From assembly GCA_964658305.1 (NCBI GenBank), contig OZ210885.1, positions 6,820,001 through 6,884,000 on the forward strand: DNA of 64,000 bases. The letters run 5' to 3'. Source of the DNA: Leptogorgia sarmentosa. Lineage: Eukaryota. The notes beneath the pieces are model-generated. The model had not been told where the DNA came from. It did not search any database and saw nothing but the letters and a program-made list of their open reading frames with translations. This document shows, one piece after another, positions 3,719-61,200 of the stretch; positions within the stretch are counted from its first letter, which is position 1, and each line of letters opens with the position of its first letter. Made by a program: the position numbers and the translations under genes.

Positions 3719-4019
3719 AACTTCAAAGAAAACTTTGTTTTGTTCAGGTCAGGTCAAAGAATCCACTTTCATATAGTTCTTGACGTCGTTGTTTTTGTTA
3801 ATTGACGGTTTATGGACAGTTTTTGCTTTTCCTTTGAGTCATCACAATGTCCCTGTAAAGCTAAACTCTGCCTGAATGCCAAGATGATTGTACCAACAAT
3901 AGAAGTAATCTTGATTGTACTGAATTCATTCGCTTCAAAGATTGTCAGCCTGTTCATCAATACCTTTAACTTTTGCCAAAATCACACTTTTAAAGCTTGT
4001 TAATTTGAGCATAGAATCT

Positions 4020-26890: not shown

Positions 26891-27659
26891 GTTTTTATTT
26901 AATTTTTTGCGGCATTTTGCGCCAATTCATTTCCGGTGTTCAGAGGCGAGATAAATTTCCCATATGAAAGCGGGTCGTATGTAATTACGTAATGTTCATA
27001 CGTATGATATGAACAGGGCCTCAGTGGGTTTCCAACGTTATGGTTGCCATCTTGGCATTCTTTGTAGCCATGGCTATGCGGGACACCGCTGCTTATAGAA
27101 CGGGGGCTCCTTTGACAAAAATGGCGCTTATATTTTTAATTTATTTACAATACGAATGTGGTCTTCAATCGCCTTGCAGGGAAGGATTTTATTATTAACC
27201 TTTAAAGGCTTATCAGCTAATTAATTACAAAATGTTCCAAACTTGGTGAGGAATGTTGGAAATCTGGTGAGATTTGCATTTTTAGTAGGTTTAATGTCCA
27301 GAAATATGCGGTTAGCAACGCATGTTTTTATTTTCGATCCAGTTTACGCAACAATAGTAAAGTATTTTTGAAGATTCAAGTTTGAATATTTTAGAATACT
27401 TCATTGACAATATATTTGTAGTTAAAAGCTTTCGTGGATATCCGCATAACATGCCCTGCAAAGCGGTCATAAAAGTGCCATTTTTCTGTCACTATATTTC
27501 CACGAATAACTGGTCTTGTAGGTTTTTCATCAACAAAATATGTACTATCCTCCTTTTTAGTGCAAAGTTCCAAAGAAACTTTGCAGTATTGTGATGAGTG
27601 GGGAAAATTCACATCAGTCATCGAGTAATCGAGTCATCGAGTAATCGAGTCATTCAGTC

Positions 27660-39019: not shown

Positions 39020-40720
39020 AGTACAACGACTCAACAAATTCCACTAGGCATCTTTATTACTATTAGTTTCGTACCACAAGATGTGGCACTCATCAGATAA
39101 ATTAGCCTTATGACCACAGCAAAAACCTACAGTATTTATGTACAAGTGGATGGAAGCTTTAAATTAATCCTATTTACAAAACACGCAAAGTAATTATTTT
39201 GTTTCTTTATAGAAGTGACAGGACGCGGAAGTATTAACAACGCATAACATAACACCAAGCTATTAATATTGCGCGGTATATTTAAAACAAAAATTCATCT
39301 GTCTCGAGTGCATGCCCTTTAAATATTAGCTAAAAGAAATTTTTTCGCGTGTCTGCATGAAGACACTAATTCATTGCGTTTATTCAAAGTAGCCAGTTCA
39401 GGTTTACATATAATAAAGTACTTTTCCCACAGGCAGAGATTGCACCGATTAGAAGCAGGGCTGTAGGGTTTGGCTTGTTTCAAGGTTTGCCATTTAATGT
39501 GGAATTTGATTCCTTTGCGCTTTAATTGCCAGACATATTTACTAAGTTCAGTGGAGTTCCTTTTCTTGTACGAAGTGAATGACGTTTTGTGGTTGTAATA
39601 TCTGGTTTTGAAAGAGTTTTCAGTCAGACCAACATATGTTTGAGGTGGATTATTGTCGTTTGTAGTAACTGTCGCTTGATATACAATGGACTTGACCAAA
39701 CATTTTTTGGACATTGGGCACTCCTCTTTCTTTCTTTCTACAGTTGCATGTGCTTTCTTCGCTCGTAAGGGCGTTTTGGGACAGTTTGGTCTTTTTGTGT
39801 CCGTCGATGGTTTGTTTGATATTAGGCATGCAACTGTAGCTTATTTTAACAGTGTTGCGGTTGAATATTTTATGTAAGGGGTGACCTATCGGGAATTCAT
39901 CATCGATGATTTTCAAAAATGTTTGTCCAATATTTGTAGATACATTTTTACTAAACGGTGGATTGTACCAAATAATATTTCGTCTTCGATTTTGGGTTTG
40001 GTGGGTTGTAACTGGTGTTTATAGCCACTATTCTGAAGTGCTTGCTGGTATTGTTGCAAGGCACATTGAAGTGATTCCTCATCGGATGATATTTCGGTTA
40101 GGCGTTTGTTGATAGATAGTGGAATATTGCACAGGATATTAGGTGGGTGGTTAGATTTCTTGTGCACGTAAAGGGGTATGTTATTAGGTTTGGCGTATGG
40201 TTGATATTTTCCGGTTGACAAATTTAGGGTAACGTCAAGAAAATTGACTATTTTCTTGTTAGCTTCAATTGTAATTTTGAGTCCGTATTTGTTGAAAATG
40301 GAACACAAATCTTTTTTGATATTTTCTATCTCAGCGCTGTCGCTTTGATGACTCCTAACCCGTCATCTCTATATAATCCAAACTTGTTTCCATGCTTTGC
40401 TGTAATAAGATGTAGTAAATATGAGCCCACTAGTTCACACGATTCTGCACCGTCGAAGCTGCCCATTGTAACATCAAAGAGACTAGATGATGTCCGTTTA
40501 CCCCGATAGTTTCCCGAACTGTGCAAACATGATGTTTTGGCGTGCATAATAATTTCTCGTTCCTCGTCCGTAATATTGTCGTAATTTGATGCGAATTCTA
40601 AAGCAGCGTCGAGAAGTTCAATGGAAATAGATGGATAAAAGTCAACTACGTCAAACGCGATAAATGAATGCTGATCTTTGTCGGCGATGTTATTAAACCA
40701 CGTCAAAACAGATTTCGTAT
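39020..40720 (-). mobile_element. 5'-truncated Penelope-like retroelement (RT + GIY-YIG endonuclease), frameshifted
   Basis: [48 protein letters not shown]...YVGLTENSFKTRYYNH. The 3' end abuts (TA)n at 38998-39019. Confidence 0.92.
39047..39107 (-). ncRNA. Type I hammerhead ribozyme in the Penelope pseudo-LTR
   Basis: The minus strand reads TTTAT-CTGATGAG-TGCCAC atctt GTGGTA-CGAAAC TAATA GTA-ATAAA: complete catalytic core, stem II, minimal palindromic stem III and a GUA cleavage triplet. Confidence 0.88.
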
Positions 40721-41316
40721 TTTAATTTAATTTATGTTGTCCAGGAAATGTCATTGAATTTGTCTGTTTGTTCTTTCGTATATAGAGTTCTTTATAGAAC
40801 TTTTGCACTTCATTCAGGATGTCTATATCATTGGTGACTTGTTCTTCGGGTGTTTGTAGTGCTGTGATCGTATGTTGTTGTTTTTTTTTCTATGCCGAAG
40901 AAATACCGTGTTGGCTTCTCCCCATGTTCTTGCCACACTGCTCAGCTACGTCCTTTTTGTTCGTCTTTTTATCTTTACGTGCTTTTTTGTGTGTTTGTTT
41001 ATTTGATTGTTTCGGCGAGTTCTTTCGGTTGCGCCTCTTCTGTGTTACTTGAGTAAAGAAAATCTCGTTCTGGTCGTATTCACTTGTCCGGTCGTCATCT
41101 TTGATGGTGGACTCCGAGTCGCTGTCCGTGTTGACTGCCCCTGTTGATTTGCTCGCACCGGGTGGATCGTCGGCTGTTGCTTCGGTTGTTTCCGTCGTTT
41201 TGGTCGTACTTGAGGTCGCTTGGGTTGATCATGGTTTCCCGTCTGTGGTTTCTATTTCCATTGCGTTCTGGGTTGCTGACGTAATGCTTTATACCGCATG
41301 CTGCTTTGATAGCGAG

Positions 41317-41600
41317 CTACCCAAGGGAAACAAACGGGTCGGAAGAGGACAGCATTTTGATGGCCTGAGTGATGGTCTGAACGTCGACTTCAGCTGTTGG
41401 ATCTTGGAAGCCAAGGCCACCAGCTTTTGCTGGGGTGGATATGAAGTGGGATGTTGCACATAGTGGGTTGCAGATGTTACGAATCACTTCGATCAGTAGG
41501 TCTACGCATTGGTCGTCAGGAAGTTGTTGAATGGATGAGACTTTGATCATTCCGATAGGAACCCCAAGGTACTAGTAATGTTCATAGTCATTAAGTGTTG
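41317..41600 (-). pseudogene. R2/NeSL-like non-LTR RT-thumb fragment
   Basis: YLGVPIG...FISTPAKAGGLGFQD...QAIKMLSSSDPFV. Confidence 0.5.
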
Positions 41601-42029
41601 GGATTGTTTTGCCTTGCACATATTTGTGATTGATAGACTAACTCAAATGACTGCGAAATACATGAGTGGTGTAGTAAAAGAGGGAAGACAGAAGCAGAAG
41701 CAATGCAACCTCGTACCCAGGGCTTATTGGCTTCTCTGCGCATAAGCCCTGGTGCAAGCCAAGGCGGAAGTGATTGATTTCATTGGTCGCTTGAATGCAA
41801 AGTGAAATAGAAATATATAAACTTTCGAAAAATGAGAGTTAACACCATGGTATTACCAATAATCAATATAAATCCTGGTTATAAATAATGTAATGTATAG
41901 CTAGTTGGCAGACTTTGGATACAACATTATAATATTCAGCATATTATCCGTATTATTAATATATCAAAATACACACTCGCACAGTATAAAATGTATACTA
42001 TCATTGAAGTAATAGGAAAGTAATTAAAG

Positions 42030-43415
42030 TTATAAATAAATATCGTATTGCTTCTCTCTAATGTCCATTCCGGCTTTAAGTTTGTGGAGAGATTTGGAAA
42101 GCGTAGCTTGAAACAAATCGTCTTGACACTGCTTTCTACCTCGTCTGCACACATGTTCACTGCTTTCTGCTTCGTCTGGGCATTCACTGCTTTCTGCTTC
42201 GTCTGGGCGTTCACTGCTTTCTGCTTCGTCTGGCCGTTCACTGCTTTCTGCTTGGTCCTCAATATCGGACGGGGAGGTATTATCTGGCATGGCCGGTTCT
42301 TCCTCTTCTCCCGAGCTGTCCGAGAGAAGCTGCTAAGTATTCCTCCTCTTTCGCAAGAGTTGTCGTGCACGGACCTCCGCAGCGAAACGTGGATGAATGG
42401 TTGCGCCCGTAGACTCATCAGTCTGGGTGTTGTCCTCCTCCTCGTGGAGATCAGCATCGGAGATGGCACATACGTGGGCTTCGTTGAACAGCCGCTCACC
42501 TTCGTTCGCTCCAATCGTCGTGAGGGCGGAATTGTTGGCCTCATACCAAAGTTCGTTTGCATCGATGTGGTGGCGATTGGCGATTGCTCTGCAATCCACG
42601 CGATACAATCCATGGCGTTGTCATAGATCCAGTGGTCTATTCCCGGGATGCATTGCGGCAAGGATGTGGTTTCATACACCTGGATTCTTCGCCTCACATT
42701 CTCGTCTTCCTCAGCGCCAAATGCTGGTAGATGGTTGGTGGTAATGTAGTAGGGGCTGTTGTTCATCACCGCCTTTGGCATAGTGTGTTTCACGGCAGTC
42801 ACCATCTACCCACGTTGGAGGATGCATTTGGTCATGTCGGCATGCATGTTGGTGGATGACCACTTGTTCACAATCACGAGCTGGTTGTTGTTGGTGATCA
42901 TCGCGCCGGAAAATTGCCTCTCGTTCATGAGGGAGGCTATCTCACTTGCTGGAATTATTCGATGAAATATATTTGCCCAGGATTACTTCCTGGAATCTCT
43001 AGGACCGATGAGAACCAGTTTGCGCACCTTGTGGGGCATTCCAAATGCCATGAGGCATTGGTACAACTTGTTGAGAAATGTGGTACGCTGCTCGTCATCC
43101 GGAAAGGAGTTGATGCCTTCGCGAAAGTAACTGGGTTATGGGGCCGTCGAGCAGTCGTATGGCACAAAGGATCTTGGCGACACTTTGCCATGCATTGACT
43201 CCGGTATGGGACACTCAATGAATGAGCAGTATTTGATAGCGAAACATTAGCCATCACACACCTCTATCAGTTCCACATCGAATTTGATCTGAGGGATGAT
43301 GGCACAAGCAGGATGCGACAGCATTCTTTCCACAGCTTGGAGATGCTGGACAAGCTTGTCTCGTAGCGCTTCGTTTGCAGCAATTTTTTTCAGGTAGCTG
43401 CCTACGTGAACCTTG
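42030..43415 (-). pseudogene. D5-like SF3 helicase, copy A (5'-truncated, frameshifted; 27-bp tandem repeat at ~42157-42252 in the tail)
   Basis: LSHPACAIIPQIKFDVELIEVCDG; VTAVKH...SPYYITTNHLP (motif C); DNAMDCIAWIA. Confidence 0.8.
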
Positions 43416-43546
43416 CACGCTCTGGTTTCGTCAACACTTTGCCGCGATACAACACGTGGTCGCATATCTTCATCAATTTTTCTATTTCCTTTATCAATAT
43501 GGTCTTTCACCACTTGGAAGAGTTGCCTGGATGCTGTGAATACGTA

Positions 43547-43860
43547 GTAGGAGAAGTGAAAATCTTTCACTATCATGTGTGAATATATTAAAACATCATA
43601 TTAGGAACACATGTAAATGAAGGGGTCGTTCCCCTTTTGAAAGGGAACAGCAATTTAAACGGAACACATTGTTCCTTTTAAATTTAAGTTGTTCCGCACC
43701 GCTTATGTTCCGAAATTCGGAACGCTTTAATAAATGTTGATTAAGGAACAATAATAATTGTAGTTCCTTTCTTTAGGAACAAAATGTTCCGCTCTTGCAC
43801 ATATAAGTTAAATTAAGTTAAAGTGGAACGATTTGTTCCCTTTGCATGTTCCCCTTTTAT
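43547..43860. promoter_or_regulatory. Putative origin/control region with iterated GGAAC/GTTCC pentamers, copy 1
   Basis: 15 pentamers counted between 43604 and 43852, including three GGAAC-N5-GTTCC dyads and the palindrome GTTCCGAA-A-TTCGGAAC. Function is inferred. Confidence 0.55.
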
Positions 43861-43924
43861 TGTTTGCATAAGTTGTTGTTATAAAAGCCAACATACTTTT
43901 GGTCGCAAACATTTTATCGTTTAT

Positions 43925-46417
43925 ATGTTTGCACGTAGAAAAGCTCAAATAGATTGGAAGTCTGTAGACGGGGCGTTTACAAAACCGAGGCGATTGCATT
44001 TGGTGAAAGGCACCGATGGCTTGCATCGTTGTCCAGTAATAGGTTGTGAACATTCAGGATTTGGCAGTCAAAGAGGCTGTCGTAAACATGTTAAAACGAT
44101 ACACAGCTGGTATTACTATTTTGGAGAAAACTAAATGTTTACTCATAGGCAGTAATCGTAAACTTGAAAGCAAAGTTTCTCTAACAGTATCGATTGTAGA
44201 TCATAAAGTGGAAAATGTCCGTAGTTTTAAATACCTGGGAATTATTATATCAACTGATTTTACAAGGACAGAACATGTTGAAAACATTGCTAAAAAGATT
44301 AACCTAAGGCTGGGTCTCCTGAAACGCATTAAACATTTATTGCCATTTAAATCGCATCTCCTCTATTATAATAGTATTGTTATGCCTTTGTTCGATTATG
44401 CTGATTTAGTGTGGGGAGATAAGCACAACTCAACCTTAATGTGTAGTTTACAGGTACTTCTAAACAAAGTTGCTAAACTAATATTAGACAAACCTTTTCA
44501 CTCATCTGCATCGGATGCCTTAGCCACGCTTAAGTGGGTGTCGCTACAAAAAAGATGCTACCAAAGGAGATGTGTATAAATGTCTAAATGGACTTATACA
44601 TCATAATATGAACTTGTCAAAACATGAAGATCAACATACGTATAATACTAGAAATAAGGAGAAGCTGAGACTTCCCAGTACAAAGAGGCAATGGGGTCAA
44701 CAAAGGACTGCGTATCATGCCGTTAAAGATTTCAATTTATTGAATCGGGACATCAAGCGATCATCGAATCTTAACATTTTTAAACGCGAGATTTTAAAAT
44801 TATACTAGTTTTGATTGTAAACATATGTAATAGATTTCATCTAAATTGTTATTTTAGCTACTTATGTAACATAATTTTTTTCTTGTATCTGACTGAGATC
44901 CTTTTTGAAAATCACATTATGTGAAAAAGTTATCTCAATAAAGATCATCATCATCATTTTGACACAAAGCCTGAAGTGTGCCTTTTGCTGCTTGCAATCA
45001 CCGAAACGCAGCGAAGATGTGGTAAAACAGACCCGGGCTGTTCTACAGATAATGACTTTGCTAGATCGTTTTCAAAATGGCTTCAAAGGAGCTGTGGCGG
45101 CGGCAAATGTGCCACACAATCGGATGTTTCAGTTAAGCGAGCATTAAAGTTCATAAAGTTTTGTTGTGACGAGAATGGCGAGGGCAAAGAAGATGTGCTC
45201 AATGCACCTAATCTCATCGATTACGCCTTGGGGTCTCCACAACTATTAACAAAGTTTGTGGACGCTCTCAAAGAGAAGTGGTGTATTGGAGAATCAGGAC
45301 AAATTGGGTATGTCGCCAGTATTTCTGATTTACTAGATTTTCGCAAATTCAATCGTCCCCCTGCAACAGTGCTTCAAAACTTCGCAGTTACCGAAGTCTA
45401 TGTAAAGAGAGCACGAAAGTATTTAGCCAAAAACATTTAGCCAAAAACATGAGATCAAATTGGACAACCGAAATGGCTATAGAAACCCTCAAATCCCGTA
45501 GAAGTTGGGCAACTCTTTCCGAAGTACAATCCGTCATTCCATTTCATGAGGACTGTTATAAATCTGTATTAGAAAATTGTATGATATCACCTTCTACAGT
45601 CAAAACAGGGGACGTGACATTTGCCACCAGATTCGTTGCAGCTTACATGTTCCTCAAAGTGAAAGGTTGCCGCCCAATGACCGGCCAACATCTGACCTTG
45701 CGAATGTTTGAATGTGCGAAAAGAAACGAAGGAATAGTGGATCAGAAAGTATTCAAGACGGCTAAAATGTATGGGTTTGACAGTGTTTACTTTGACAAAT
45801 GTGGTATGCAGTTACTGGAAAAGTATATAGCGTATGTAAGGCCCCTTCTTACACCCACTTGCGACTATGTGTTGGTGAATCGAAACGGTAAACAGTTCCA
45901 AAAACTTTCTAATCTTTTGAGTGTATTGGTGTTTGAAGCAATAGGAAAATACATTCATCCAACTAGGTACAGACAGATTATCGAAACAGAAAGTGCGCAC
46001 GTTCTACTGCCAAACGAACAGCAGTGGATATCTGAAGACCAAAAGCATAGCTCCAACGTTGCCTGTGTACATTATCAGAAGAAAAGATCCCATGAAGTGG
46101 CCATGAGAGGACGTGAGTGCATGAAAAAATTAATTGAGAGAAGTAATAGTTCACAGAGAGAAGATGAGCATGAACAACAGTCCTCATCTGCCCCCATACA
46201 TGTTGGCGAAGACACGCCCATTGTATCCTGCCCGAAAATAGCCAAATGTACTCAAGGCCCTCGCTTCACATGTGAGGAAGATAACGCCATACGCTTGGGC
46301 ATTGGAAAGTTCGGTTTTCTTTGGACAAGGATATTACGGCATGCAGAATATAACTTTCATGCATGTCGTGTTGCAAATACTTTAAGAAAGAGGGCGGAAG
46401 CCTTGAAATTAGTGTAA
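43925..46417 (+). pseudogene. Tyrosine recombinase with N-terminal C2H2 finger and C-terminal TRF-like Myb domain (~546 aa when reconstructed)
   Basis: CPVIGC...CRKHVKTIH; KGCRP (R), VFKT (K), HPTRYR, DQKHS (H), VHYQ (Y); RFTCEEDNAIRLGIGKFGFLWTRIL...R..TLRKR. Broken by the LINE insertion and a 14-bp duplication at 45421-45448. Confidence 0.85.
44124..44961 (+). mobile_element. 5'-truncated L2/CR1-type LINE inserted in the YR gene
   Basis: FKYLGIII...LGLLKRIK...PLFDYADLVWG; AATAAA plus (ATC)n tail; ATTTTG duplicated at 44118-44123 and 44956-44961; empty site visible at ~49235-49258. Confidence 0.9.
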
Positions 46418-46499
46418 TGATTACGTGTAAACCTTAAATAATTGTTGGTATTATTAGTGTGAATTACATGGGGAACTGGCGGTGGAATTGACTGGCCGT

Positions 46500-48405
46500 G
46501 CACATGGTCGTTTCCTCATCATGTGTCTCCTTGCTTCCGTCGTGAAGCTCGCATGGATTGTGTCATGTGTGGTGGTGGGTTGGGTACCGGAATCACCATG
46601 AAGATCAGCCTCGGTGATGTGTAGAATCTCCCCTCTGTGCCACGGAGTGGGGGTATTCAGAGACGGTAGAAGACGACTTAAAGTCTGCTCGTCCTCATAC
46701 CAGCACTCCTCCGGAGGGATGAGGATGCGTATTTATTTCGTCGGCGGCCCACGCGATGCAGTCCATTGCGTGATCGTACATCCACTGGTAACCGTCAGGT
46801 GTTATGGTTGAGAGGGAGGAAGTGGTGAATATCTCAACGTTGGAAATTTGCGTTATCTTCATCAAAATCCGGCACTGCATTGGTGGTGATGTAAAATGGG
46901 CTGTGGCAAGTCACATGTCTTGGTTGGGTGTGCTTTACTGCAGTTGCTAACCAACCGCCTTGCAGGATGGTCTTCGCGAGATCAGCGGTCATTGTGCTTC
47001 CACACCAATCGTCAATGATGATGAGTTGGGTGTCCTCCTTGATCATCGCAGCAGAAAATTGGCGCTCGTTCGTGATGGATGCGATGTACTGGGCTGGAAC
47101 AATGCGCTGAAGGATACGTGCCCACAAGGTTTTGCCGGAGTCGCGAGGTCCTGCGACAACCAATTTTCGTGTTTTCTGTGGGATTTTATGGGCGAGTAGG
47201 CACTGGTAGAATTTATTGATGAAGTTCGTTCGCACGTCGACATCGGGAAACATATTGTATAGCCCTTGGCGAAATTATAGAGGTTGAGGTGGTGTGGAGG
47301 AGTCATAGGGTGTGTACGCTCGCGGCGACAACTTCCCAATGCTTGATTCTTCGATGGCATTTGGTATGAACGCTCGACTGCAAATCGCCAGACAAACACT
47401 GTTCGAGACTTCAATAAGGTTGAAGTCAAAGGCTAGCTGCTCTATGATCTCGCATGCCGGATGGGAGAGTATGGTTTCGACACTTTTGAAATGTTTGACC
47501 AGCTGCTGATTGATAGTGTCATTGACAAGCAGCTTGTTCAAATAGCTGCCAACGTCCATGAGCCGTGTGTACGTGAATTGGGCTCCATCGGGTCTTGCAT
47601 ATATGTCACCACGGTACAGGGCGTGTTTCGACAGGTGCATAACCCGTTCCACCTTGCGGATGGTAGATATAACATCTGTGGAAGGTGATTAAGATGAACG
47701 TGGGTGCAAGTTTGGGCGCCGTGTACTTTCCACAACCAGGCCATCACATTGTGTCCTCTCTATGGCAGCGTCAAATTCCTCCAGATACCCTTCATGATTG
47801 ACAATGACGAAACAACAAGGAGAGGTTGGAAAATGGACTGGGCAAAATTCATCCGACTCCTTGTCTTCCTCGTCCTCGCTTTCACTGCGGGTGCATTGCT
47901 ATAGCAGTACCTGTTGGAGGCGTTCAGCATTTCTTGCACCGACGGATTGTTGTGATCGTTCACCATCTGAAAGAGCTGTCTAGCTGCAGTTTCCAGAGCT
48001 TTCTGCGGCTGCGCACCCTGATTGGCATGATTTCTGGCTCGACGTCCTCATTGTGCAATACAGCAAAAAAGGTTGTGTTGCTGCTTGGCCCCTTCTTCGT
48101 GTTTGCATTGGAAGAGACGGCAGATATGGCAGAGAAAAAGAAAGCCACACCTTCGATGGCTTCGATCACCTCGTTCAGCTGCAGACGTTTGGAGGCAATT
48201 TGTAATGTAGCCAGTTCGATGTCCTCACGAGGAACTCGTCATGTTGCGCGACGATATTATTTAGCTTGCATATACATCGGCTACATAGGTTTTTGCCCAA
48301 ATCTAGATAAAGAATGTCATGGCAACTTACCAAGCTCAAAACATTTGCGCGTAGAGAGTTTTGCAGGCGTTTCGAATCTAGTTCTTTTCTTAGCTTTGGC
48401 GGCAT
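46500..48405 (-). pseudogene. D5-like SF3 helicase, copy B (most complete; probable short first exon 48331-48405)
   Basis: D5_N-like FDFNLIEVSN; Walker A GPRDSGKT; Walker B IIIDDW; motif C FYITTN; several frameshifts. Confidence 0.85.
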
Positions 48406-48476
48406 TTTGCAAGAGAACTTGTTCTGTGCAGTGAACGCGTCTTCTCACATGTTTTGCTATGATGCTATTTACATAG

Positions 48477-49003
48477 GGAACAATATTTAGTACTTTGATT
48501 ATCATGCGTATCCCTAAATATTGTTCCTTTAACAATGAAATTTAAACGCCAATTTTGCATGATTCACAGTCTGCTGCACACATAACCATTATTGGGCCAA
48601 ACCACAACATTATACGCATGGTCAATGAAGCGAAAAAATAATTTAAATTTGCAAATACAAAGTGGAAAAGTTTTGGTAGGAGAAGTGGAAATCTTTCCCT
48701 ATCATGTATAAATATATTAAAACATCATATTAGGAACACATGTAAATGAAGGGGTCGTTCTCCATTTGAAAAGGAACAGCTATTTAAACGGAACACATTG
48801 TTCCTTTTCAATTTAAGTTGTTCAGCACCGCTTATGTTCCGAAATTCGGAACGCTTTAACAAATGTTGATTAAGGAACAATAATAATTGTAGTTCCTTTA
48901 TTTAGGAACAAAATGTTCCGCTCTTGCACATATAATAGGTGTTAAAGTGGAACGATTTGTTCCCTTTGCACATTCCCTTTTGTTTTTCCCTTTTATTGTT
49001 CCC
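48477..49003. promoter_or_regulatory. Putative origin/control region, copy 2, between divergent helicase and YR starts
   Basis: Near-identical to 43547-43860 (offset 5129 bp), plus a perfect 14-bp IR GGAACAATATTTAG/CTAAATATTGTTCC (48477-48490, 48514-48527). Confidence 0.55.
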
Positions 49004-49148
49004 TTGTGAAGGAAGCAATGTCATGAAAAATACATTTCTCACAATGCAGTGCCTTAGGCTGTTAATAGGAAACTCAATTTATGCAGTTTGCATAAGTTGT
49101 TGTTATAAAAGCCAAGGTACTTTTGGTCGCAAACATTTTCTCGTTTAT

Positions 49149-52100
49149 ATGTTTGCACGTAGAAAAGCTCAAATAGATTGGAAGTCTGTAGATGGGGCGT
49201 CTGTCGTAAACATGTTAAAACGATACACGGCTGGTATTACTATTTTGACACAAAGCCTGAAGTGTGCCTTTCGCCTCTTGCAATCACCGAAACGCAGCGA
49301 AGAAGTGGCAAAGCAGTCCCGGGCTGTTCTACAGATAATAACTTTGCTAGATCGTTTTCAAAATGGCTTCAAAGCAGCTGTGGCGGCGCAAAATCTTCCA
49401 CATAATCGGACGTTTCAGTTAACCGAGCATTAAAGTTCATAAAGTTTTGTTGTGACGAGAATGGCGAGGGCGAAGAAGACGTGCTCAATGCACCTAACCT
49501 CATCGATTACGCCTTGGGGTCTCCACAACTATTAACAAAGTTTGTGGACGCTCTCAAAGAGAAGTGGTGTATTGGAGAATCAGGACAAATTGGGTATGTC
49601 GCAAGTATTTCTGATTTACTAGATTTTCGCAAATTCAATCGTCCCCCTGCAACAGTGCTTCAAAACTTCGCAGTTGCCGAAGTGTATGTAAAGAGAGCAC
49701 GAAAGTATTTAGCCAAAGACATGAGATCAAAGTGAACAACCGAACTGGGTATAGAAACCCTTGAATCCCGTAGAAGTTGGGCAACTCTTTCCGAAGTACA
49801 ATCCGTCATTCCATTTTCATGAGGACCGTTACAATCTGTTGGCAATACCAACTTTTGTTATGTCCTAATGTTTGCCCCACGGCATCCATTGTTTTACTCC
49901 AATAGGTTTGAGGTGCAGCCTCTTCTTCTTCGGACGTGGATATGTGTTGGCGCTTCTGGCCGGAGGTGGATGGATTTGCAGTGGATTGGACTGCACTATG
50001 TTGTCTCGTCTGCTCGCTGTTACACGTATTCCAGTGTTCTTCGTTGGTTTCAGCGGAATTGGCGGACGCTGCTTGCATTTGGGACGACTGTGATGATTCC
50101 CCATGGACAGCAATATTTGGAGGAATGTTGACTTCGGACTGAGTGGACTCCGTGGAATCGTCATTGAATGGGGTTTGTGTTCCATCACCACGTCTCTTTC
50201 GTCCCAATTTGCGCGCTCTCACCTCTGCTGCGAAGCTGGCGTGGATTGCTGGTGGCGGCTCATCTTCACTTTCGCCTTACTCGACACGTAGATCGGCGTG
50301 AGATACACCTCGTACTTTGGCATGGTCAAACAACGCTTCACCCTTGTTGGCGTTTATCGTAAACATGGGCGTGTCCCTCTGTTCTTGGTACCAAAGATTT
50401 TCTTTGGGGACGAGATGGATATTTGCATTGATCTCATCAGCAATCCACGCGACACAATCCATGGTGTGATCATAGAGCCATTTGTCGATTCCGGTTCATG
50501 TGTGTGGAAGGTATGTTGTGGTGAAAATCGAAATTCTTTGCCTCACATTCTCGTCATCTTTGGCAAAGTCTGGGATGTGATTGGTGGTGACGCAGTATGG
50601 ACTATTGCTCATGACAGTCCGTGAAAGGTCGTGCTTGACCGCGCTGACCATCCAACCTCCCTGCAGGATGCATTTGGCAAGGTCCGAGTCCATTCTTGTC
50701 GCCGACCGTTCGTCCACGATGACCAGTTGGGTTTGGTTGTTGATCATTGCTGCAGAAAACTGTCGCTCCTTGGTAATGGAGGCGATGGCATTTTGATGAC
50801 AATTACGTCTTTCCCGAGTCTTTGGGGCCTGCAACAACATTGCAACAGACATTGATAAAACTTGTTGAGGAATTCCACTCGTACGGCTTCGTCTTCGAAC
50901 GAATTGAAGATTCCTTCCCAGAAATACTCTGGCTGTGGAGGAGTGGTGTGGTCGTAGGGGACGAAGCTTCTTGGGGAGACTTTGCCAAGCATTGAGGTGG
51001 GAATCGGACATGGAATGAACAATCTCGATTTGATGGAGAAACAGTAGCCATTGAGCACTTCAATCAGGTCCAAGTCGAATTCTACTTGTGGAATGATCTG
51101 ACACGCAGGGTGGGAAAGGAACTTGTGGATGGCATTAAAATGCTGTAAAATTTTATCGCGCAACTGCTTGTTGGCCATTAGTCGGTGAAGGTAACTCGTC
51201 ACATCAATCATATGCACAAACATCATGGAAGCTTATTCGGGTTTTGCATACACTGCGGAGTTGTACATACCGTGGTGGAGGAGTGGAGAGTGATTTGCAG
51301 GCATGTGAAAGAGCAGACCATCTGACTGGAGCTTCCTGGCAGCCATGTTTATTTGGGGGCCAAAATCGTGCATATTCACCACAATCAGGCAACATGGAAA
51401 GACGGGAAAACGGAGGCATTGCGATTGGAGTATGTCCTTGCATGTTTGAAAGTGCGAAAACAAACGAAGGATTAGTGGATCAGAAAGTATTTAAGACGGC
51501 AAAAAAGTATGGGTTTGACAGTGTTTAGTTTGACGAATGCAGCATCCAGTTACTGGAAAAGTATATAGCGTATGTAAGGCCCCTTCTTACAGCCACTTGC
51601 GACTATGTGTTGGTGAATCGTAACGGTAAACAGTTCCAAAAACTTTCAAATCTTTTGAGTGTATTGGTGTTTGAAGCAATAGGAAAATACATTCATCCAA
51701 CTAGGTACAGACAGATTATCGAAACAGAAAGTGCGCACGTTCTCCTGCCAAACGAACAGCAGTGGATATCTGAAGACCAAAAGCATAGCTCTAATGTTGC
51801 CCGTGTACATTATCAGAAGAAAAGATCCCGTGAAGTGGCCATGAGAGGACGTGAGTGCATGAAAAAATTAATTGAGAGAAGTAACAGTTCACAGAGAGAA
51901 GATGAGAATGAACAACAGTCCTTGTCTGCCCCCACACATGTTGGGGAAGACACGCCCATCGTTTCCAGCCAGAAAATAAACCAATGTACTCAAGGCCCTC
52001 GCTTCATATGTGAGGAAGATAATGACATACGCTTGGGCATTGCAAAGTTTGGTTTTTGTTTGACAAGCATATTACGCCATCCAGAATAACTTCCATGCAT

Positions 52101-52153
52101 GTCGTGTGGCAAATACTTTAAGAAAGAGGGCGGAAGCCTTGAACTTACTTTAA
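49149..52153 (+). pseudogene. Second, closely similar copy of the C2H2-YR-Myb gene, split by a helicase fragment
   Basis: 49149-49839 and ~51436-52153 align with 43925-46417; internal deletions and stops. Confidence 0.85.
49843..51432 (-). pseudogene. D5-like SF3 helicase, copy C
   Basis: FDLDLIEVLNG, AGPKDSGK, VIVDE, QGGWMVSAVKH, YCVTTNH, MDCVAWIADE. Confidence 0.82.
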
Positions 52154-52248
52154 TAGTTAAGCGTACACCTTAAATCATTTTTTGTATTCAAAGTGTGGAT
52201 GAAATGAAATAAATTGTGTTAAAATGAATACATGTTTTTTGGCAAAAG

Positions 52249-53103
52249 TTGACATTTAATAATTTTAAATGGACACAGCAAATTAAACATGTTAAATCAA
52301 AAATTGCTAAAAACACTGGAGTCCTTAATAAACTGAGGTACTATGTTGACTTAAGGATGCTTAAGCAACTCTATTACACATTAATATACCCCTATCTTAA
52401 TTACGGATTAATGAGCTGGGGAAATACGTACAGAACTAATTTAAATAAAATTCGATCTGCCCAAAATACATGTGTAAAAAGCATATTTTTCGCCTCAAAA
52501 AGAGAGAATGTGACACCGTATTATAATCTGTTGAAGATTCTTAAATTTGATATTTTTAAATTAAAAATTAGTATATTTATATATAAGATTATACATGATA
52601 AGACTAATATTCCCACTGTATTTTCTCAAACAATCCAACTGGCTTCCACATGTCATTCCTATAACACTAGATTTGCAGCTAAACAAAACTTTGGTAGACC
52701 AAAAGTCCGAACAAATTATGGTGTACATACTTTCAACTTTGTTTCATCTCAGATATGGCAAACTATAGATCTCGAAACTAAATTGTCTAATTCAGTCGCT
52801 ATGTTTCACAAAAAATATACTCAATCTTTACTTCTTTCACAAATTTAGTTACAATAGTAATAAGAATCAAGAAACACTGTATATAAATGTATATTAATAC
52901 GTTTCGCTTTAAATTTTTAAATTGATATTACTGATAGACATGCAGTGATCAACTCGAAAGCTTTTGGCTACTTTGATCACTGCGCACCATAATTTATTTG
53001 TAATTATTGTAACTTAATTTCCCTTTTTTTGTGTAATAATTGTGTATCTGTTGTATTAGAATGTATGTATATATAATTGTGCAAATTTGAATGAAGTCTA
53101 AAG
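52249..53103 (+). mobile_element. 5'-truncated L2/CR1-type LINE (ORF2 C-terminus and 3' UTR)
   Basis: WTQQIKHVKSKIAKNTGVLNKLR...LYYTLIYPYLNYGLMSWG...HSYNTR...RTNYG; its 3' end abuts helicase copy D. Confidence 0.8.
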
Positions 53104-54660
53104 TGACCATCCAGCCACCTTGCAGAACCTTTTTCGCTGGTTCTGCGCTAATTGTGTTAGCTGACCATTCGTCGATGAAGACTAGTTGCGTCTTGTTGGT
53201 TATCATGGCTGCGGAGAATTTGCGTTCGTTGGTTATCGAAGCAATGTATTCTTCCAGGATGATGCGCCGGAAGATACTCCCCCAAGATGTCTTGCCAGAG
53301 TCACGTGGCCCGGTCACAACCAATTTTCTTGTCTTCTGCGGCATGTTGTAAGCCAGCAAACACTGATAGAACTTATTGACGAACTTGACACGAACGTCTT
53401 CTTCGGGGAAGGAGTTGTGGATGCCATCACGAAAGTGGTGAGGTTGAGGGGCCACTGAACATTCGTACGGGACGTAGGCTCTCAGGGATAACTTGCCAAT
53501 CATTGAGTCGTTGATGGGATTGGGGACGAATGTTCTGTCGGAGATGGAGAAGCAGAAGCCGTTGGACACTTCTATGAGATTCACGTCGAAGCTGATTTGT
53601 TCCACAATCTCGCAGGCTGGATGGGAGAGGAATCTTTGGATGCTGCTGAAGTTTTTTGCAAGGCTGTCGTTCAGCGCATCGTTCGCAAGCAGCTTGTTGA
53701 GGTAGCTGGACACATCCATCAACCGTACGTAAGTGATTCTGGCTCCATCGGGCTGCCGTAGATCTTACCTCAGTACAAGGCTTGATTACACAATGCCATA
53801 ACGCGTTCAATTTTGCGTATTGTGGAAATGGTGTCGTCGAATGCTGTATTTGATGGGCCTTTATCACATTCGTCGCGAACTTGAATGTCCAACACTAGCC
53901 CGTCACATTCCAATTTTCTTAAAGCGTCCTTGAATTGTTCCACGTCTCCACAATGGCTCACAACCACGAAACAACAAGGACGCGTGGGAAAGTGGGTTGG
54001 ATGCAATTCCTCGACATCCCCTTCATCTTCGTCCTCGCTTTCACCTGACGAATGTGGCGCATTCTCGAAGCAATACTGGTTGGAGGCGTCCACCATCTGC
54101 TGCATTGAACCATTGTTATGCCGCACTTTCCATGTCGTGATTACCGCGGTTTCTCACACGGATCGGTCGAATTTCCGGCTCCACGTCCTCGTTATGCAAA
54201 GCCGCAAAAAATGTGTCGTCATCACATTTCTTGTTTGGCTGGTACACGATAAAAGAGGAGACACAAGGATAGGTGTTTTCTCCAACATTAGCGTTGCTCT
54301 GTTGAGCTTTCGTGGTGTTCGGATTGGAACGGACGCTCGAAATGCAGGGGAAGTAAAAGATCACACCTTCGATTGAAGTGATGGCATCGTTGAGTAGGAG
54401 CCTCTTAGAGGCGACCTGTAGCTTGGCCAGCTCTATATCTTCAGGGTTTACTCATCAAATAGCGCGACACGCGACTGCTCGCTGCTTGGGTCTAATCTAA
54501 TGCACGTAAAATAGGGAAGTTTATTTGAAGCTACAGTACGTGCATTCATTTGCAGGAAAACAAGGGAATACTTGCATGTAATTACCAAGCTCAAAATGTT
54601 GGCTCGAAGCGAGTTTTGTACGCGCTTGGAGTCTAACTCCTTTCGTGGTTTTGGTGGAGG
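53104..54660 (-). pseudogene. D5-like SF3 helicase, copy D (3'-truncated by the LINE; probable first exon 54586-~54660)
   Basis: FDVNLIEVSNGFCFS, TGPRDSGKT, VFIDEW, LQGGWMVT; N-terminal region homologous to copy B. Confidence 0.85.
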
Positions 54661-54669
54661 CGTTTCTCC

Positions 54670-54859: not shown

Positions 54860-56628
54860 TCCAACATCAGATAACAGTAACCTACATGAATACATATCCA
54901 ATGTTTATCATGACATCAAGACTTCACATAATATACAGCGTAAATCCCAACCACCAAACCTATCGAAACAGGAACTAGACTCCATGTACAAACTTAGGAA
55001 AGATAATGACTTGGTAGTCAAACCAGCAGATAAATGAGGGGCCATTGTAATCTGGCCAAAAGAATCTTATCTGGCTGAGGCATACAGACAATTAAACAAC
55101 TCAAATCATTGTCATAAAATTCCACATGACCCAACCCTTGAAATACTAGCAGAAACAAAAAAACTTGCCAACAAGTTACACAAATCTAACATTATAGACA
55201 ACACAACACACAAATTTCTCACAACAGACTCAGTTGCATGAACACCACACCTATACCTCTTACCAAAAATCCACAAACCAGACATTCCAGGACGATCCTC
55301 AAAAACATTCCATCATATGTACAAGACACAACAGACTTTCTCCGCAGAATCTTCACTCTAAACCAAAATCTACCAAAAGACATCATACTTATCACAATTG
55401 ATGTTAGAAGCCTATACACCAACATACCTAATGATGAGGGCATTCAGGCCTGCATAGATATGTTGGAAGAACATCACATGATAACTCCAGAATTAAAACA
55501 ATCCGTGAAGTAGATCTTATCAACTGTACTAAACAAAAACACCTTTACATTCTATAATGAGCACTTTTTACAAATTCACGCAAGACCGTCGGAAGCGGGG
55601 GGGCTGGGGGGCTTAAGCCCCCCAATAATTTTTACATGTACAAAAAAAACCCAAAACAAAACACTCAGACTAGAAAAAATGCGAACCTGATCTTCAGAAT
55701 TCTAGAAAATGTACTTCTCAAAACGCTGGAAATCGGGGGTTCTTGATTTCAAAATGTTCTACGGGGGGCATACCCCCAAGCAGCGCGAACGTCTTTGGCA
55801 TTCGCCTAGTGCTCAGGCTTTTGGCGAGCCCCCCCCCAATGTATATTTGCTTCCGACAACCTTGTTCACGGCACTGCCATGGGATCTCCCATGGCACCCA
55901 CATATGCTGATATATTCATGGCTGTACTAGAAAGGGAGTTACTTAAAACGGCACCTAATAATCTGATACCAATTGAGTGGATAAGATTTATAGATGACGT
56001 ATTTGCAATTTGGACACATGGCACTGAAAAACTCTAACTATTCCTAACATACATCAACCAATTCCACCCGACCATTAAATTTGACTACACATACTCACAT
56101 AAATCAGTTAACTTCCTGGACACAACCATTTACATCAACCCCAGTAACAAACTTGTATCAGACCTTTACATTAAACCCACTGACAGAACACTCCTACTAC
56201 ACCACAACTCCTTCCATCCCCAATCGTGTAAGAACGCAATAATATACAGCCAAGCACTAAGATACAGACGTATTATAACGGACGATGACAAACTACACAA
56301 TAGACTTAACCATCTCCTTGTCGCACTCGTACATAGAGGATATACACATAATAATATCATAACTCAATTTAACAAAGCACTAACATACAAAACACAAAGG
56401 GAACTGCTCAACAACACCAAGTCCTCCAAGACTAACAACAGCCCCATTTTTGATATACAATATAATAACAACATGAAACACATAGCACACATACTTCGCA
56501 AACACTGGAGTGTCATTGAGAATGATCCTACATTACGAGTTCTATGGCCTGAACCTCCTATTGTAGCGTATCGTAAAAATAAAAACCTCAGAGACACACT
56601 AGTTACTGCAAAACTCAACATAACTTGA
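54860..56628 (+). mobile_element. Decayed Penelope-like RT (second family); no GIY-YIG domain visible
   Basis: KPADK*GAIV, TIDVRSLYTNIP, QIHGTAMGSPMAPTYADIFM, RFIDDVFAIW, VNFLDT, LYIKPTD...SFHP; many stops. Confidence 0.85.
55581..55864. mobile_element. 284-bp hAT-like MITE inserted in the Penelope RT
   Basis: TIRs CAAGACCGTCGGAAGC/GCTTCCGACAACCTTG; TSD TTCACG; removing the element restores QIHGTAMG. Confidence 0.85.
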
Positions 56629-57904
56629 CAACTTTGTGACACCATCAATCATGGGTGGCAAACCACTCGGACACCACCAACCCACCACCTCAACTGGCAA
56701 CACCTAATTAAACCACTGCCACCAAACTCCCACTGAATCCACCATCTGGAAACCCATTTCAACACCAACCCACAATCCATACATCCCCTCCAAGACCCAC
56801 TCACCACCCTGACACCACCTAGACCACCCAACCCATCCCACCTTCCCTCCTAAATAAAACCAATATGGAAGGCAGAAGACACTGGCATGTTAGAGGTACC
56901 ACACAATAGAGTCTCCACACACTGGCAACCTGAAAATCAAGATTCCAACCCAATTTGAAACACCTCACATGAACAATGCACAACTGAAGGACAATATGAA
57001 GAAACTAAATACAGGGAATGTTGAAACACCGCCATACATACACTAATATAAGCAATCATTGTATAGTCAGATATGCCATTGTAGTTTAGGATTTCACGGT
57101 ATACTGAAGCCATAGAAATAGATCTCGTCTACTCACATAGACCTTGCACCATGTCATGTCTTTCTATGTACATTCTACTAAATACTACATGGTCATGCCC
57201 ACACAGGGAGGGGCGATAGCCTAACTAAACCATACAGAAAAATTGCAACAACTAGGATAAATGAAAACAACTGTTATTTTTCTGATCAGCACACCTTTAA
57301 CAAAAGTGAAAGATTTTGTTGATATTTCTGAATCTTTATTTTCCAGTAATTGTTGAATTTCAACTTCACCAAGTTTGACAAACCTTTCAATGGAAAAAGC
57401 CTCTTGAATTTAAAAACAACAAAACCTTAATCATTTCGCAGCTATTGTCATGTCAATTACGTCAGCGAGTCAATACGGCTCTCGTCGTCAAAGAAAAATG
57501 TCGCAAATACGTCCAACTGTGTGATAGTCTAGATAATGTTTTCAAAGTCATAGGAACAAGTACAAGAACAAGGACAGAAGAGATCAAATCATCTGAACTA
57601 AAAACGATCTGGACACTGAATTTGGCAATTGGACATTCGGAAACTGAATTTGCGGGAAAGAAACTTGCACTCTGATGTGAAAAATTAAACATTACTTTTT
57701 AATTTCTAATTTGGTTTTCCGAACAAACTTCCAAGCTGCCTTTCATTGTGCGAAAGCTAGTTCGATGCTAAATTGCAAGCAAAATACCTCGGCAATCCAT
57801 CCGCTACGCAATTATGCTTGGCAAATGACAACGTAGCTAAGTATAAATAAAAAATTCGGGGTCATTCGGAAGCAACTACACTAAAAAATGGTAGTGATGT
57901 TTCA

Positions 57905-58280: not shown

Positions 58281-61200
58281 GTCGCTCAACTTTGGGAGAA
58301 GACCACGCGTAATCGTTTCGCCATATTCTTGAATTAAGAAGCTCTTCTGGCCTTTAGTCAATTCCTTTTCCTAAATGAAAAAAGAATTATGAACAACGAT
58401 ATCTTTCGTAGGAGAAACCAATTCCTGAAAACGTATTTATATCAGGTAGTTACCTCCTCCTCGTCGGATTCTTCTTCCTGTTCCTCGCGATGTCGTGGCG
58501 TTTCCGTCATGGGACCGGCTAAATAAAAAAAGAATCATGAACAACGATATCTTTCGTAGGAGAAAACAATTCCTGAAAACGTATTTATATATATGGTAGT
58601 TACCTTTCTTTTTCGTGGCGGTTCCTCCCTGGCGGACGCTTCTCCGGTGGAAAGCTCTTGCTCTTGCTGTTGCTGGTCAGGTAAAAAAATGCCCCATCCT
58701 CCTTTGTTTCGATATGAGTGATTTTCGGAGGCCAGCTCCGTGGACGTCCACGCCCATCCTCTTCCCCATCACTTTCATTCGCTGAGACACTCTTGACTCA
58801 GTGAGACGCTGTCCCGACGCGTTGACAAAGAATACCGGTTCGGGCGGTATACCCGGCTTACCCTCCGTCAGCGATTCACTGTTAGCATATTGAGGCCTCA
58901 ATTCATTGAGGTATTTTTGGCCCATTTTTTTTAGTTCCTCGTCCCAGAACAGCTTGGCTGGGCCAACCGAGGATCCGATCTTATGCTGGGTCGTTTGCGT
59001 CACGTACAAGTCTCGAGTTTGTTTGCCTGCCTTGAACTCAGCCACCGTGAGATTTGCGAGTGCCCCAGCTCGCTGACCGCTTGCGACGAGGAGCCGTAGC
59101 ATCAAATAATCCCTCATCTGTGCGAAATCCGATAAGGAAGTGGGCTCGTCTTCGTCTTCGTCAATCTCGGAGAAACGTTGGCGAATGGACTGGCTCATTG
59201 GACTCGACAACATTCGGGCGAAGTCTTCAGGACCAAGAAGACGATCTTGGTCCCTTTTTCTGACCTCCGCCCGACGGCGAGTCAGTGCTGGTGTTAATGA
59301 CCCAGTCCAATGTACAATCCGTCTGACGGCGGCTTGTATCAGCTCCATTTGACGGCTTGTGACGGTGCTATCGATCCGTTTAATTCCCTCCTCCCTGCTC
59401 AACAGGAAGTTGAGAAAGAGTTTAAACGAGACTACATACGTCTTGAGGGTCTGCGCCTTTCTTGGTTTCTCTAGCAAATCGTTTCCCCGGAATAAATTGT
59501 TACGGATGGTATCGAGGGATGCGTCGGCCCAGACCAGCTTTACATCCCTCCCTTCCGAGTCCACTTCGTAAAGAAGGCGACAGACCCTCCTCATATGTTC
59601 CTTGGCATCGGATTTTTTTCGATTCTTGCCCTCGAACGAGACCAAATGGCCCAGGAACATTTGCAATATCGGGTGTTTTGAGATGTCGGTGAGTACCTGG
59701 GGCAGAGGGTCTTGTTTGGGGGCCCTTGGAGGTCGATTCATCTCGTACAGTTCTTCCTCCAGACTGCCTTCACCCGGTGGTGGTGGTGGTGGTGGTGGGG
59801 ATGGTGAACGGTCCCTTAAGGTGGAGGAAGAGGCCGGCGGTCTTCTTTCCGCATCCATCCTCTCGCGACGAGCACGCCTCCTCTCCTGGTTCGCGTTTTC
59901 AGTGTATCTACGAGAAAAGATCATATATGCTCAGTTGATTGCTTTACGATTACTATTTATATTATATTTTATATATAGGTGTATGTATGTAATATTATAC
60001 ACATACTAACCGCTTGAAATCCGCATCATCGGCTTTCATCCCATGGACCCTTTTGAGGTGGTTGTCCAACCTCAACTGCCATTCCTGGCAGTCTACGATT
60101 GGGCATTGCACCTTCATCTGATCTCCGGATCCAGGCTTGGAGCTCAGGCTGAGCGCCTCTTGCCTCGACTTTCCGTGGATTGTACGGAGATGCTTGGGCA
60201 TATTCTTAACTTTGGCATCGCACAAGCTGCATGCACACCTCTTCCTTTCGTACTAAAAGAAAATAAACTCCTTTTAATATATAACACGGAAACTATATTT
60301 ATATACGAATATATACGGAAACTAAATATATTCTATATATATTATATACGAACCTTCCCCTCTTCTTCGGCTTCGGGAGAAGTTTCTTGCCGCTGTGATG
60401 GTATATAGTCAGGTCTCTTATGTCAAAATATAGGTCGGATCGTTACATAAATGACAAAAGCGCCAAATTTGGCAGAGACGTTCTTTAGGACTTCCTGTTT
60501 CATATTAGTGGGGGAGCCCAACAAAATCGTCAATATATAAAGATTAAGGGGGCTTTTAAAAATTATTTTAATTACAAATTGGGCTACCTGTGGTTGTTTG
60601 CAGTTTTCTAGTAAAACCGCTGTAGTGACATTTATAGACTGAAACTATTAATTCTTCTCACTCACTTCTCACTCCTTTCTTCACATATTTTGTCATAAGC
60701 CATTATTTATATCTTGCATAAAGCATATAAATATATACTAGTTACCAGACCCTTCTCGGTATAGTTGATTCATATTACACGATCCCTGTGTTTTGAACCA
60801 AAATTACTGCTGTTTCATTCATGATAAGTCCATATTAATTCATAAATGTACTTTCTAGTAACGTTATACAACCCCAGAAACGTCAATAGATAGCTATATG
60901 GCAACATAACGCCAACAATGCGGATTATTTAAACAATTATAATTTAATCTTGATTAAGTTAGGATAGGATAAGGGTTAGGATAAGCATTGGCATCTGCAA
61001 AGAGGAGTACATTCCAAGGACGCCTTGGCACACTTGCATCTTGTACACACGCCTTTACAGGAACACTTTATCAGCTCACTACAAGCCCTGGATACTTCAG
61101 GTATGGTTATCCATTTGGGAGACCATTTGCCGTCAACTTTAAACCATGAGAACTGCCCCGGTGACGGCACATGTGGCTGTGGCTGATCGCTTACTGCCCA

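What the first reader, a model, noticed from the sequence alone, without database searches (positions are those of the whole stretch)
42030..54660. Candidate new mobile element: tyrosine recombinase + D5-like SF3 helicase + origin-like region, repeated head-to-tail
Seen: the order helicase(-) / pentamer region / YR(+) / helicase(-) / pentamer region / YR(+) / helicase(-). The period is 5129 bp, or about 4.3 kb once the 838-bp LINE is removed. No RT, capsid, pPolB, HUH endonuclease or TIR was recognised inside the unit. Established: Cryptons typically encode only a YR and are thought to move via circles; DIRS/Ngaro need RT; YR plus SF3 helicase occur together in larger capsid-coding elements such as some Polinton-like viruses and P4-like satellites. 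Inference: a minimal, plasmid-like animal element that excises as a circle, replicates using its own helicase and reintegrates, possibly as concatemers. I do not know of a described family with this layout. All copies here are decayed and some junctions are deletions.
Basis: partly seen in the sequence, partly recalled or inferred. Interest (0 to 1): 0.92.

Follow-up and report, generated by a model that had tools for sequence, protein, structure and literature searches.

The report
Helicase-carrying recombinase transposon of cnidarians
A broken stack of copies of a two-gene mobile element found across corals and jellyfish, which carries a site-specific recombinase and a virus-type DNA helicase and likely cuts itself out as a circle, likely copies itself with that helicase and re-inserts; if so, it would explain how this kind of transposon multiplies.

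Summary
The window holds four helicase relics, 51-59% identical in protein, alternating with three recombinase pieces and two GGAAC-rich regions that are 91-93% identical in DNA; most joints are deletions. Folds confirm a Xer/Cre-type tyrosine recombinase (YR) and a D5-like SF3 helicase. In metagenome contigs, 25 of 30 loci with enough DNA carry the helicase convergent to the YR. Complete copies are 7.8-8.2 kb with only these two conserved genes, a GGAAC array and lox-like ends; one contig shows a rejoined right-end/left-end site. Left ends often abut microsatellites, and helicase and YR histories are decoupled. Best reading: a Crypton-like YR transposon with its own replication initiator, here piled into a mixed head-to-tail array. 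Circles and replication are inferred, not seen. I found no description in nine paper searches, but Repbase CryptonV (cnidarian, target-specific) and the label Crypton-H could not be examined and may cover it. The scan earlier noted a 32-kb YR+SF3 element with lox-like arms in another genome (e1-7802896).

The parts
41793..42029 (.). 3' flank of helicase H1; left limit of the array (approximate); a short common repeat and then low-depth DNA lie to its left
   Evidence: contig depth 41-60 here against about 8 at 41300-41585 in run X1; loose ends at 41793 in 3 runs
42030..43540 (-). H1: SF3 helicase relic, N-terminal part deleted, stops and frameshifts
   Evidence: tblastn with natural homolog P0151, 44-73% over the longer pieces; loose end at 43498
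43547..43924 (.). NC1: GGAAC/GTTCC array (15 copies), left part deleted relative to NC2
43925..46417 (+). YR1: C2H2-like zinc finger, core-binding and catalytic YR domains, C-terminal TRF-like Myb domain; split by the insert and one frameshift; R, K, HxxR, H, Y motifs present
44124..44961 (+). 838-bp insert with (ATC)n tail, including one copy of a 6-bp target duplication; LINE 3' fragment by inspection (no Pfam hit)
46473..48405 (-). H2: helicase relic with first exon and GT donor at 48330; C-terminal part deleted at the joint with the YR1 3' flank
   Evidence: 88% to P0129 in the core; loose ends both ways at 46473-46475
48477..48527 (.). Likely right-end/left-end junction: 14-bp perfect inverted repeat around 23 bp; 3-mismatch copy of the conserved left-end arm at 48507
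   Evidence: deep contigs begin at 48507 and H2-type contigs diverge after 48500
48501..49148 (.). NC2: left non-coding region with GGAAC array, putative origin
49149..49840 (+). YR2-N: YR residues 1-256 with a 100-bp internal deletion and stops
49841..51432 (-).
   Evidence: 62-75% to P0144; the same joints occur in low-depth contigs of other runs
51433..52150 (+). YR-C: YR residues about 306-544 (second half of YR2 or a third copy); 3' flank shared with YR1 to 52206
52228..52848 (+). Second LINE-like 3' fragment (by inspection; no Pfam hit)
53100..54663 (-). H4: helicase relic, C-terminal part deleted; 89-bp GT-AG intron at 54497-54585 after a 26-codon first exon
   Evidence: 75-85% to P0121
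54670..54775 (.). (CTTTC/CTTTT)n microsatellite at the right limit of the array

Best explanation
The region is a decayed, mixed head-to-tail array of three or four members of a cnidarian two-gene mobile element (tyrosine recombinase plus D5-like SF3 helicase) that likely excises as a circle, is likely amplified by its helicase from the GGAAC array, and likely re-integrates by site-specific recombination. Shown: fixed order left end - GGAAC array - YR(+) - helicase(-) - right end; 12-bp inverted terminal arms that form a lox-like arm/8-bp spacer/arm site when ends are joined; a shared TCC (or TCA) in the spacer and target; no third conserved gene; a spliceosomal-type intron in the helicase gene; helicases swapped among YR lineages. 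Inferred: YR binds the arms and excises and inserts a circle; the helicase N-terminal alpha/beta domain, which lacks HUH and primase catalytic motifs, binds GGAAC pentamers as SV40 T antigen binds its origin, and host polymerases copy the circle; because a resident copy's end is itself a target, different subfamily members stack head-to-tail; recombination in such stacks or between co-resident circles swaps helicase modules; deletions and LINE insertions then killed this array.
For: YR fold: the top Foldseek rows are XerA, YopR and Cre (no E <= 0.001), and VIA gives XerD Z 10.7; catalytic motifs are conserved in the 51-sequence alignment. Helicase fold: D5/ASFV PrimPol/SaPI5, E 7e-9 and Z 14.2. 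Linkage: 25 of 30 loci with >=2 kb downstream carry a convergent helicase, 0 of 12 with >=2 kb upstream carry one upstream; 11 of 15 clusters at 95%. Four YR/helicase protein pairs of the window's own clade share exact longest-contig lengths. Ends: left arm in 21 of 23 loci examined (motif derived from these loci), exact right arm plus ATCC in L004 and L006, rejoined site at the start of L036. GGAAC >=10 upstream of the YR in 21 of 31 loci. Simple repeats at 6 of 16 left flanks against 0.3% background. Decoupling: Spearman -0.09 over 55 pairs of 11 elements, e.g. YR 92% with helicase 44%; trees agree at depth and conflict within clades. Whole-model VIA alignments to SV40 T antigen and Vientovirus Rep start at residue 1.
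Against: No free circle, copy-number excess or replication was observed; the L036 junction also fits tandem insertion. The N-terminal domain was not folded alone: the T-antigen alignments have rmsd 12, and the Atlas hint points weakly (<0.9) to primase families instead. 5 of 30 loci lack the helicase, and the closest locus, L001, has none and carries its GGAAC array on the other side. In the window both YR/helicase joints are damaged and the end junction at 48.5 kb is degenerate. No locus of the window's own clade shows an intact convergent pair. Both ends were seen together in only two elements with a helicase.
Confidence: 0.65

Rival explanations
1. Same element, but the helicase serves the transposition step (copy-out or strand unwinding at the donor) and no freely replicating circle exists.
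For: No episome was seen (searches are contigs only); no primase or HUH catalytic motif is conserved in the N-terminal domain.
Against: A dense two-orientation pentamer array next to a D5/T-antigen-type initiator is the layout of replication origins (established knowledge, recalled); it is conserved across YR clades about 45% identical.
Confidence: 0.15
2. It is the replication/integration end module or a satellite of a larger capsid-coding virus such as a Polinton-like virus.
For: YR plus D5-like primase-helicase next to inverted repeats forms PLV end modules (PMC11296320, passages); 52 of 4862 coral polintoviruses carry a YR (PMC11131425, passage).
Against: Complete elements with both ends hold only two conserved genes; no relative in IMG/VR for either alignment; helicase gene has an intron. 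Dependence on a helper virus in trans is not excluded.
Confidence: 0.08
3. Two separate mobile units: a YR-only Crypton and a helicase cassette that keeps inserting into it.
For: YR and helicase histories are decoupled; helicase-less copies exist (L001, L028/L031).
Against: The helicase always sits on the same side, on the same strand, inside the two termini; deep trees are congruent; a deep contig is H1-like in the core and H3-like in the tail, i.e. swaps occur inside the gene (records matched by length and depth).
Confidence: 0.07
4. The window is a rolling-circle concatemer of one circle.
For: Regular alternation and orientation; NC and YR copies 91-93% identical.
Against: Helicases are 51-59% identical and span the whole clade, each closest to a different natural homolog.
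Confidence: 0.05

Closest known systems
Cryptons (YR DNA transposons; Kojima and Jurka 2011, PMC3212892, passages; active Cryptons in PMC9977147, passages)
   Same: YR with full catalytic set, no reverse transcriptase, short repeated sequence at the crossover, proposed circular intermediate, animal host.
   Different: Second gene for an SF3 helicase, a GGAAC array, a C-terminal Myb domain and 12-bp terminal inverted arms; the passages describe animal Cryptons as encoding only a YR, and 'helicase' does not occur in that paper.
CryptonV (Kapitonov and Jurka 2012, Repbase Reports; seen only as a citation and one sentence in PMC8869645)
   Same: Cnidarian YR DNA transposons, target-site specific, some families in microsatellites.
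   Different: Unknown: gene content and sequences not seen. The window holds two other, unrelated YR families, so a cnidarian YR need not be this one.
Crypton-H (RepeatMasker/Dfam label; seen only as a name in PMC11118728 and bioRxiv 2024.03.05.582530)
   Same: A Crypton subgroup name, with three zebrafish families.
   Different: Definition not found; whether H stands for helicase or a host could not be checked.
Polinton-like virus end modules (PMC11296320, passages)
   Same: YR plus D5-like helicase beside inverted repeats, with domain swapping.
   Different: No capsid, protease or packaging ATPase; 8 kb against 14-40 kb (size from the listing of PMC12220804); no recognisable primase motifs.
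SV40/papillomavirus replicons and SaPI/P4-type satellites (structures; biology recalled)
   Same: SF3 initiator helicase with a pentamer-rich putative origin; SaPI and P4 also pair a YR with a D5-like helicase.
   Different: No capsid genes; eukaryotic intron; sequence identity to these proteins only 9-20%.

Membership tests
Crypton (broad sense) | Tyrosine recombinase with R-K-HxxR-H-Y catalytic residues | tested here: met
Crypton (broad sense) | No reverse transcriptase or DDE transposase in the element | tested here: met
   complete relatives hold two conserved genes only
Crypton (broad sense) | Short (4-6 bp) direct repeats at both ends, no TIRs | tested here: inconclusive
   3-4 bp TCC/ATCC repeated at both ends of L004 and L006, but 12-bp inverted arms are present
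Crypton (broad sense) | YR is the only protein (animal Cryptons as described in PMC3212892) | tested here: not met
   convergent SF3 helicase in 25 of 30 loci
Crypton (broad sense) | Circular intermediate | not testable with these tools
   rejoined ends in L036 fit a circle or a tandem
CryptonF | C-terminal GCR1_C domain | tested here: not met
   0 of 51 members list GCR1_C; 46 of 51 match Myb instead
CryptonA | DUF3504-type YR | tested here: inconclusive
   not among the 25 families listed for 51 members, but Pfam's catalytic integrase model also misses this YR
CryptonV | Cnidarian host | tested here: met
   named homologs from Paramuricea, Dendronephthya, Oculina, Rhopilema, Clytia
CryptonV | Target specificity, often microsatellites | tested here: met
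   6 of 16 left flanks and 1 of 5 right flanks are simple repeats, background 0.3%
CryptonV | YR sequence falls in the CryptonV clade | not testable with these tools
   no Repbase or Dfam sequences held; Kojima review not held
Crypton-H | Definition and sequences of the group | not testable with these tools
   name only
Polinton-like viruses | Capsid proteins and packaging ATPase within the termini | tested here: not met
   no third conserved coding block in 7 elements compared, two with both ends
Polinton-like viruses | YR plus SF3 helicase as integration and replication genes | tested here: met
DIRS/Ngaro retrotransposons | Reverse transcriptase and RNase H | tested here: not met
Helitron/Replitron/CRESS replicons | HUH endonuclease motifs | tested here: inconclusive
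   no conserved HUH motif in the N-terminal 205 residues; the domain was not folded alone

The most novel reading that the evidence does not exclude
An undescribed class of animal integrative plasmids: capsid-less 8-kb elements spread across corals, octocorals, jellyfish and hydrozoans that replicate as episomes from a T-antigen-like pentamer origin, integrate through a lox-like site into microsatellites and into each other, and trade replication initiators like plasmid incompatibility groups.
Probability: 0.35. Interest if true: 0.9.

Novelty: new variant of a known kind. Interest (0 to 1): 0.72.

Why it matters
Cryptons were seen to excise cleanly and yet rise in copy number, which the authors called a complex, unexplained mode (PMC9977147, passage). 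An element with its own initiator helicase and a conserved pentamer array offers a directly testable route: excise, replicate, reintegrate. It would also be a minimal link between transposons, Polinton-like virus end modules and small DNA virus replicons in animals. Natural copies with open reading frames and 99% identical relatives at different sites exist (L005-L013 family), so its lox-like recombinase and origin can be assayed and may serve as tools for coral and anemone genetics.

Tried and rejected
No genome was held for the window, so empty sites and copy number in the host were not examined. Pfam, PHROGs and PDB sequence searches did not name the YR catalytic domain; folds did. IMG/VR gave no relative of either protein and no joined-end pattern. 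No RNA holder was listed among sequencing runs. Contig depth was used only as a rough hint of repeated against single-copy DNA. I first read H1 and H3 as reciprocal chimeras from one crossover; rejected because each agrees along its length with one natural homolog (P0151, P0144), which makes the deep contig the recombinant. A strict lox-like search (arms >=10 bp, <=1 mismatch, spacer 5-9) found no site at 48.5 kb. Whether H3 sits inside one YR or between two YR copies could not be decided; I lean 60:40 to two copies because both flanking deletions have parallels in the array. The Atlas look-up of the YR gave no answer. Paper searches returned no description of a Crypton with an SF3 helicase; I read only term-matched passages of 15 papers, not whole texts; one supplement was searched; bioRxiv supplements, Repbase Reports and the Kojima 2019/2020 review were not available and may bear on novelty.
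Full report
Observation. Self-comparison shows the non-coding region and YR pieces repeated at 91-93% identity and the helicase pieces at 61-65%. With natural homologs as probes the order is: H1(-) 42030-43540, NC1 43547-43924, YR1(+) 43925-46417 with an 838-bp insert, H2(-) 46473-48405, NC2 48501-49148, YR2-N(+) 49149-49840, H3(-) 49841-51432, YR-C(+) 51433-52150, a LINE-like piece, H4(-) 53100-54663, then a microsatellite. The period of 5129 bp (4291 without the insert) is right for NC and the YR N-half. GGAAC/GTTCC is strongly enriched in both NC regions (15 in 378 bp and 15 in 743 bp; shuffle maxima 4 and 5 of 2000). All copies are broken.

The proteins. The YR frame has 760 homologs within the length limits searched; full-length ones are mostly 544-590 aa, and named ones come from Paramuricea, Dendronephthya, Oculina and Rhopilema. 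A profile finds 2470 clusters at 50% identity (these include Myb-only matches that I did not separate). The model (pLDDT 75.5) matches XerA, YopR and Cre as top Foldseek rows without reaching E 0.001, and XerD at Z 10.7 with a core-binding domain and a TRF1-like Myb domain; the R, K, HxxR, H, Y motifs are conserved and present in YR1. The helicase has 74 longer homologs, up to 975 aa; its model matches D5, ASFV PrimPol and SaPI5. Its N-terminal alpha/beta domain shows no conserved HUH or primase catalytic motif. Two whole-model alignments, to SV40 T antigen and Vientovirus Rep, start at residue 1 but with rmsd 12, while the Atlas gives a weak primase-like hint, so origin binding is an inference. 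H2 and H4 share a short first exon and a GT donor; H4 keeps an 89-bp GT-AG intron. The host is likely an octocoral-like cnidarian (73% to a Paramuricea protein, 48% to Oculina).

The native element. Of 144 confirmed metagenome stretches the best 80 were returned. In 25 of 30 loci with at least 2 kb downstream, and 2 of 50 with less, a related helicase lies downstream on the opposite strand; none of 12 loci with 2 kb upstream has one there. At 95% clustering that is 11 of 15 clusters with enough flank. Seven elements compared by tblastx share only the YR and helicase coding blocks. A left-end arm of 12 bp lies upstream of the YR in 21 of 23 loci examined (motif derived from them; in L063 it is separated from the YR by an insertion), its reverse complement followed by ATCC closes L004 and L006 (7.8 and 8.2 kb), and L036 begins with right arm, 8-bp spacer, left arm, the form expected of a circle or tandem junction; the DNA before that right arm differs from L006's, so it likely belongs to another family. 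Ten or more GGAAC lie upstream of the YR in 21 of 31 loci. Six of 16 distinct left flanks and 1 of 5 right flanks are simple repeats, against 0.3% of background windows. These loci belong mostly to a sister clade at about 44% YR identity; for the window's clade the outside evidence is four YR/helicase pairs with identical longest-contig lengths and one helicase-less locus, L001.

The window's array. Contigs of four runs (at most three samples, two studies) show loose ends at 43498, 46473-46475 and 49841 and an uninterrupted YR across 49816-45570, so those joints are deletions; low-depth contigs repeat the window's own H3 joints, so they are not assembly errors. Deep contigs start at 48507, where the best local copy of the left arm lies (3 mismatches; one of 12 such matches in 13 kb) inside a 14-bp inverted repeat, and H2-type contigs diverge after 48500. 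I read 48.5 kb as a degenerate right-end/left-end junction. The two YR C-halves are sisters in a tree while the four helicases span their whole clade (FastTree on about 170 residues, rows under 90 residues would have been dropped, none were). The same decoupling holds among 11 outside elements (Spearman -0.09, 55 non-independent pairs). One deep contig is H1-like in the core and H3-like in the tail (matched by length and depth). So the array was stacked from different subfamily members, not copied from one circle.

Mechanism. Shown: gene order, termini, target bias, module swapping, intron. Inferred: YR excises and inserts a circle through the lox-like site; the helicase loads at the GGAAC array and host polymerases amplify the circle; ends of resident copies act as targets. 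Confidence is about 0.9 that this is one two-gene mobile element and about 0.6 that it replicates as a circle; 0.65 for the account as a whole.

Known relatives. It works like a Crypton with an added replicon. Papers were seen as search listings and term-matched passages only: PMC3212892, PMC9977147, PMC8869645, PMC3706591, PMC5753468, PMC9004415 (plus one supplement searched), PMC13465315, PMC10871703, PMC11071296, PMC11118728, bioRxiv 2024.03.05.582530, PMC13465017, PMC11296320, PMC7805219, PMC11131425. None of these passages describes a Crypton with an SF3 helicase, and 'Crypton' with 'SF3 helicase' returns 0 papers.

Verdict. Real, widespread in cnidarians, a new variant of YR DNA transposon unless Repbase already holds it; interest 0.72.

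Noticed in passing
window 2292-3748 (-): Relic of another tyrosine recombinase (Phage_integrase E 2e-7), not alignable to the family studied (hhalign probability 0.6%).
   Followed up: partly
window 58680-59930 (-): 417-aa open frame with a Phage_integrase match (E 1.2e-6): a third YR family in the same window.
   Followed up: partly
window 10400-12274 (-): 625-aa open frame matching Mutator-like transposase (E 3e-86).
   Followed up: partly
window 16320-17318, 25738-26926, 18001-18450: Harbinger-like (DDE_Tnp_4) and piggyBac-like (DDE_Tnp_1_7) transposase relics.
   Followed up: partly
window 39319-41228 (-) and 55000-56630 (+): Penelope-like reverse transcriptase and GIY-YIG relics, by inspection (RVT_1 only E 0.07).
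   Followed up: no
window 29307-30916: 545-bp inverted repeats, 92% identical, around about 520 bp.
   Followed up: no
L001 845-3833: Helicase-less relative with the GGAAC array downstream of the YR and a different repeated motif upstream, ending in a (CAACAG)n repeat.
   Followed up: partly
L008 922 and L009 4427: The element sits inside a BEL/Pao-like retrotransposon frame at a GGTCC site; a comparison with uninterrupted copies would fix the crossover point.
   Followed up: no
window 48806 to 46724 and 51154 to 48499 (contig joints): Other copies join the GGAAC region to helicase pieces in further deleted forms (3 runs and 1 run), resembling defective derivatives.
   Followed up: no
L027, L032, L033, L038, L046, L049, L053, L055: More distant YR relatives (36-41%) on short contigs with no helicase in view; hosts unknown.
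   Followed up: no
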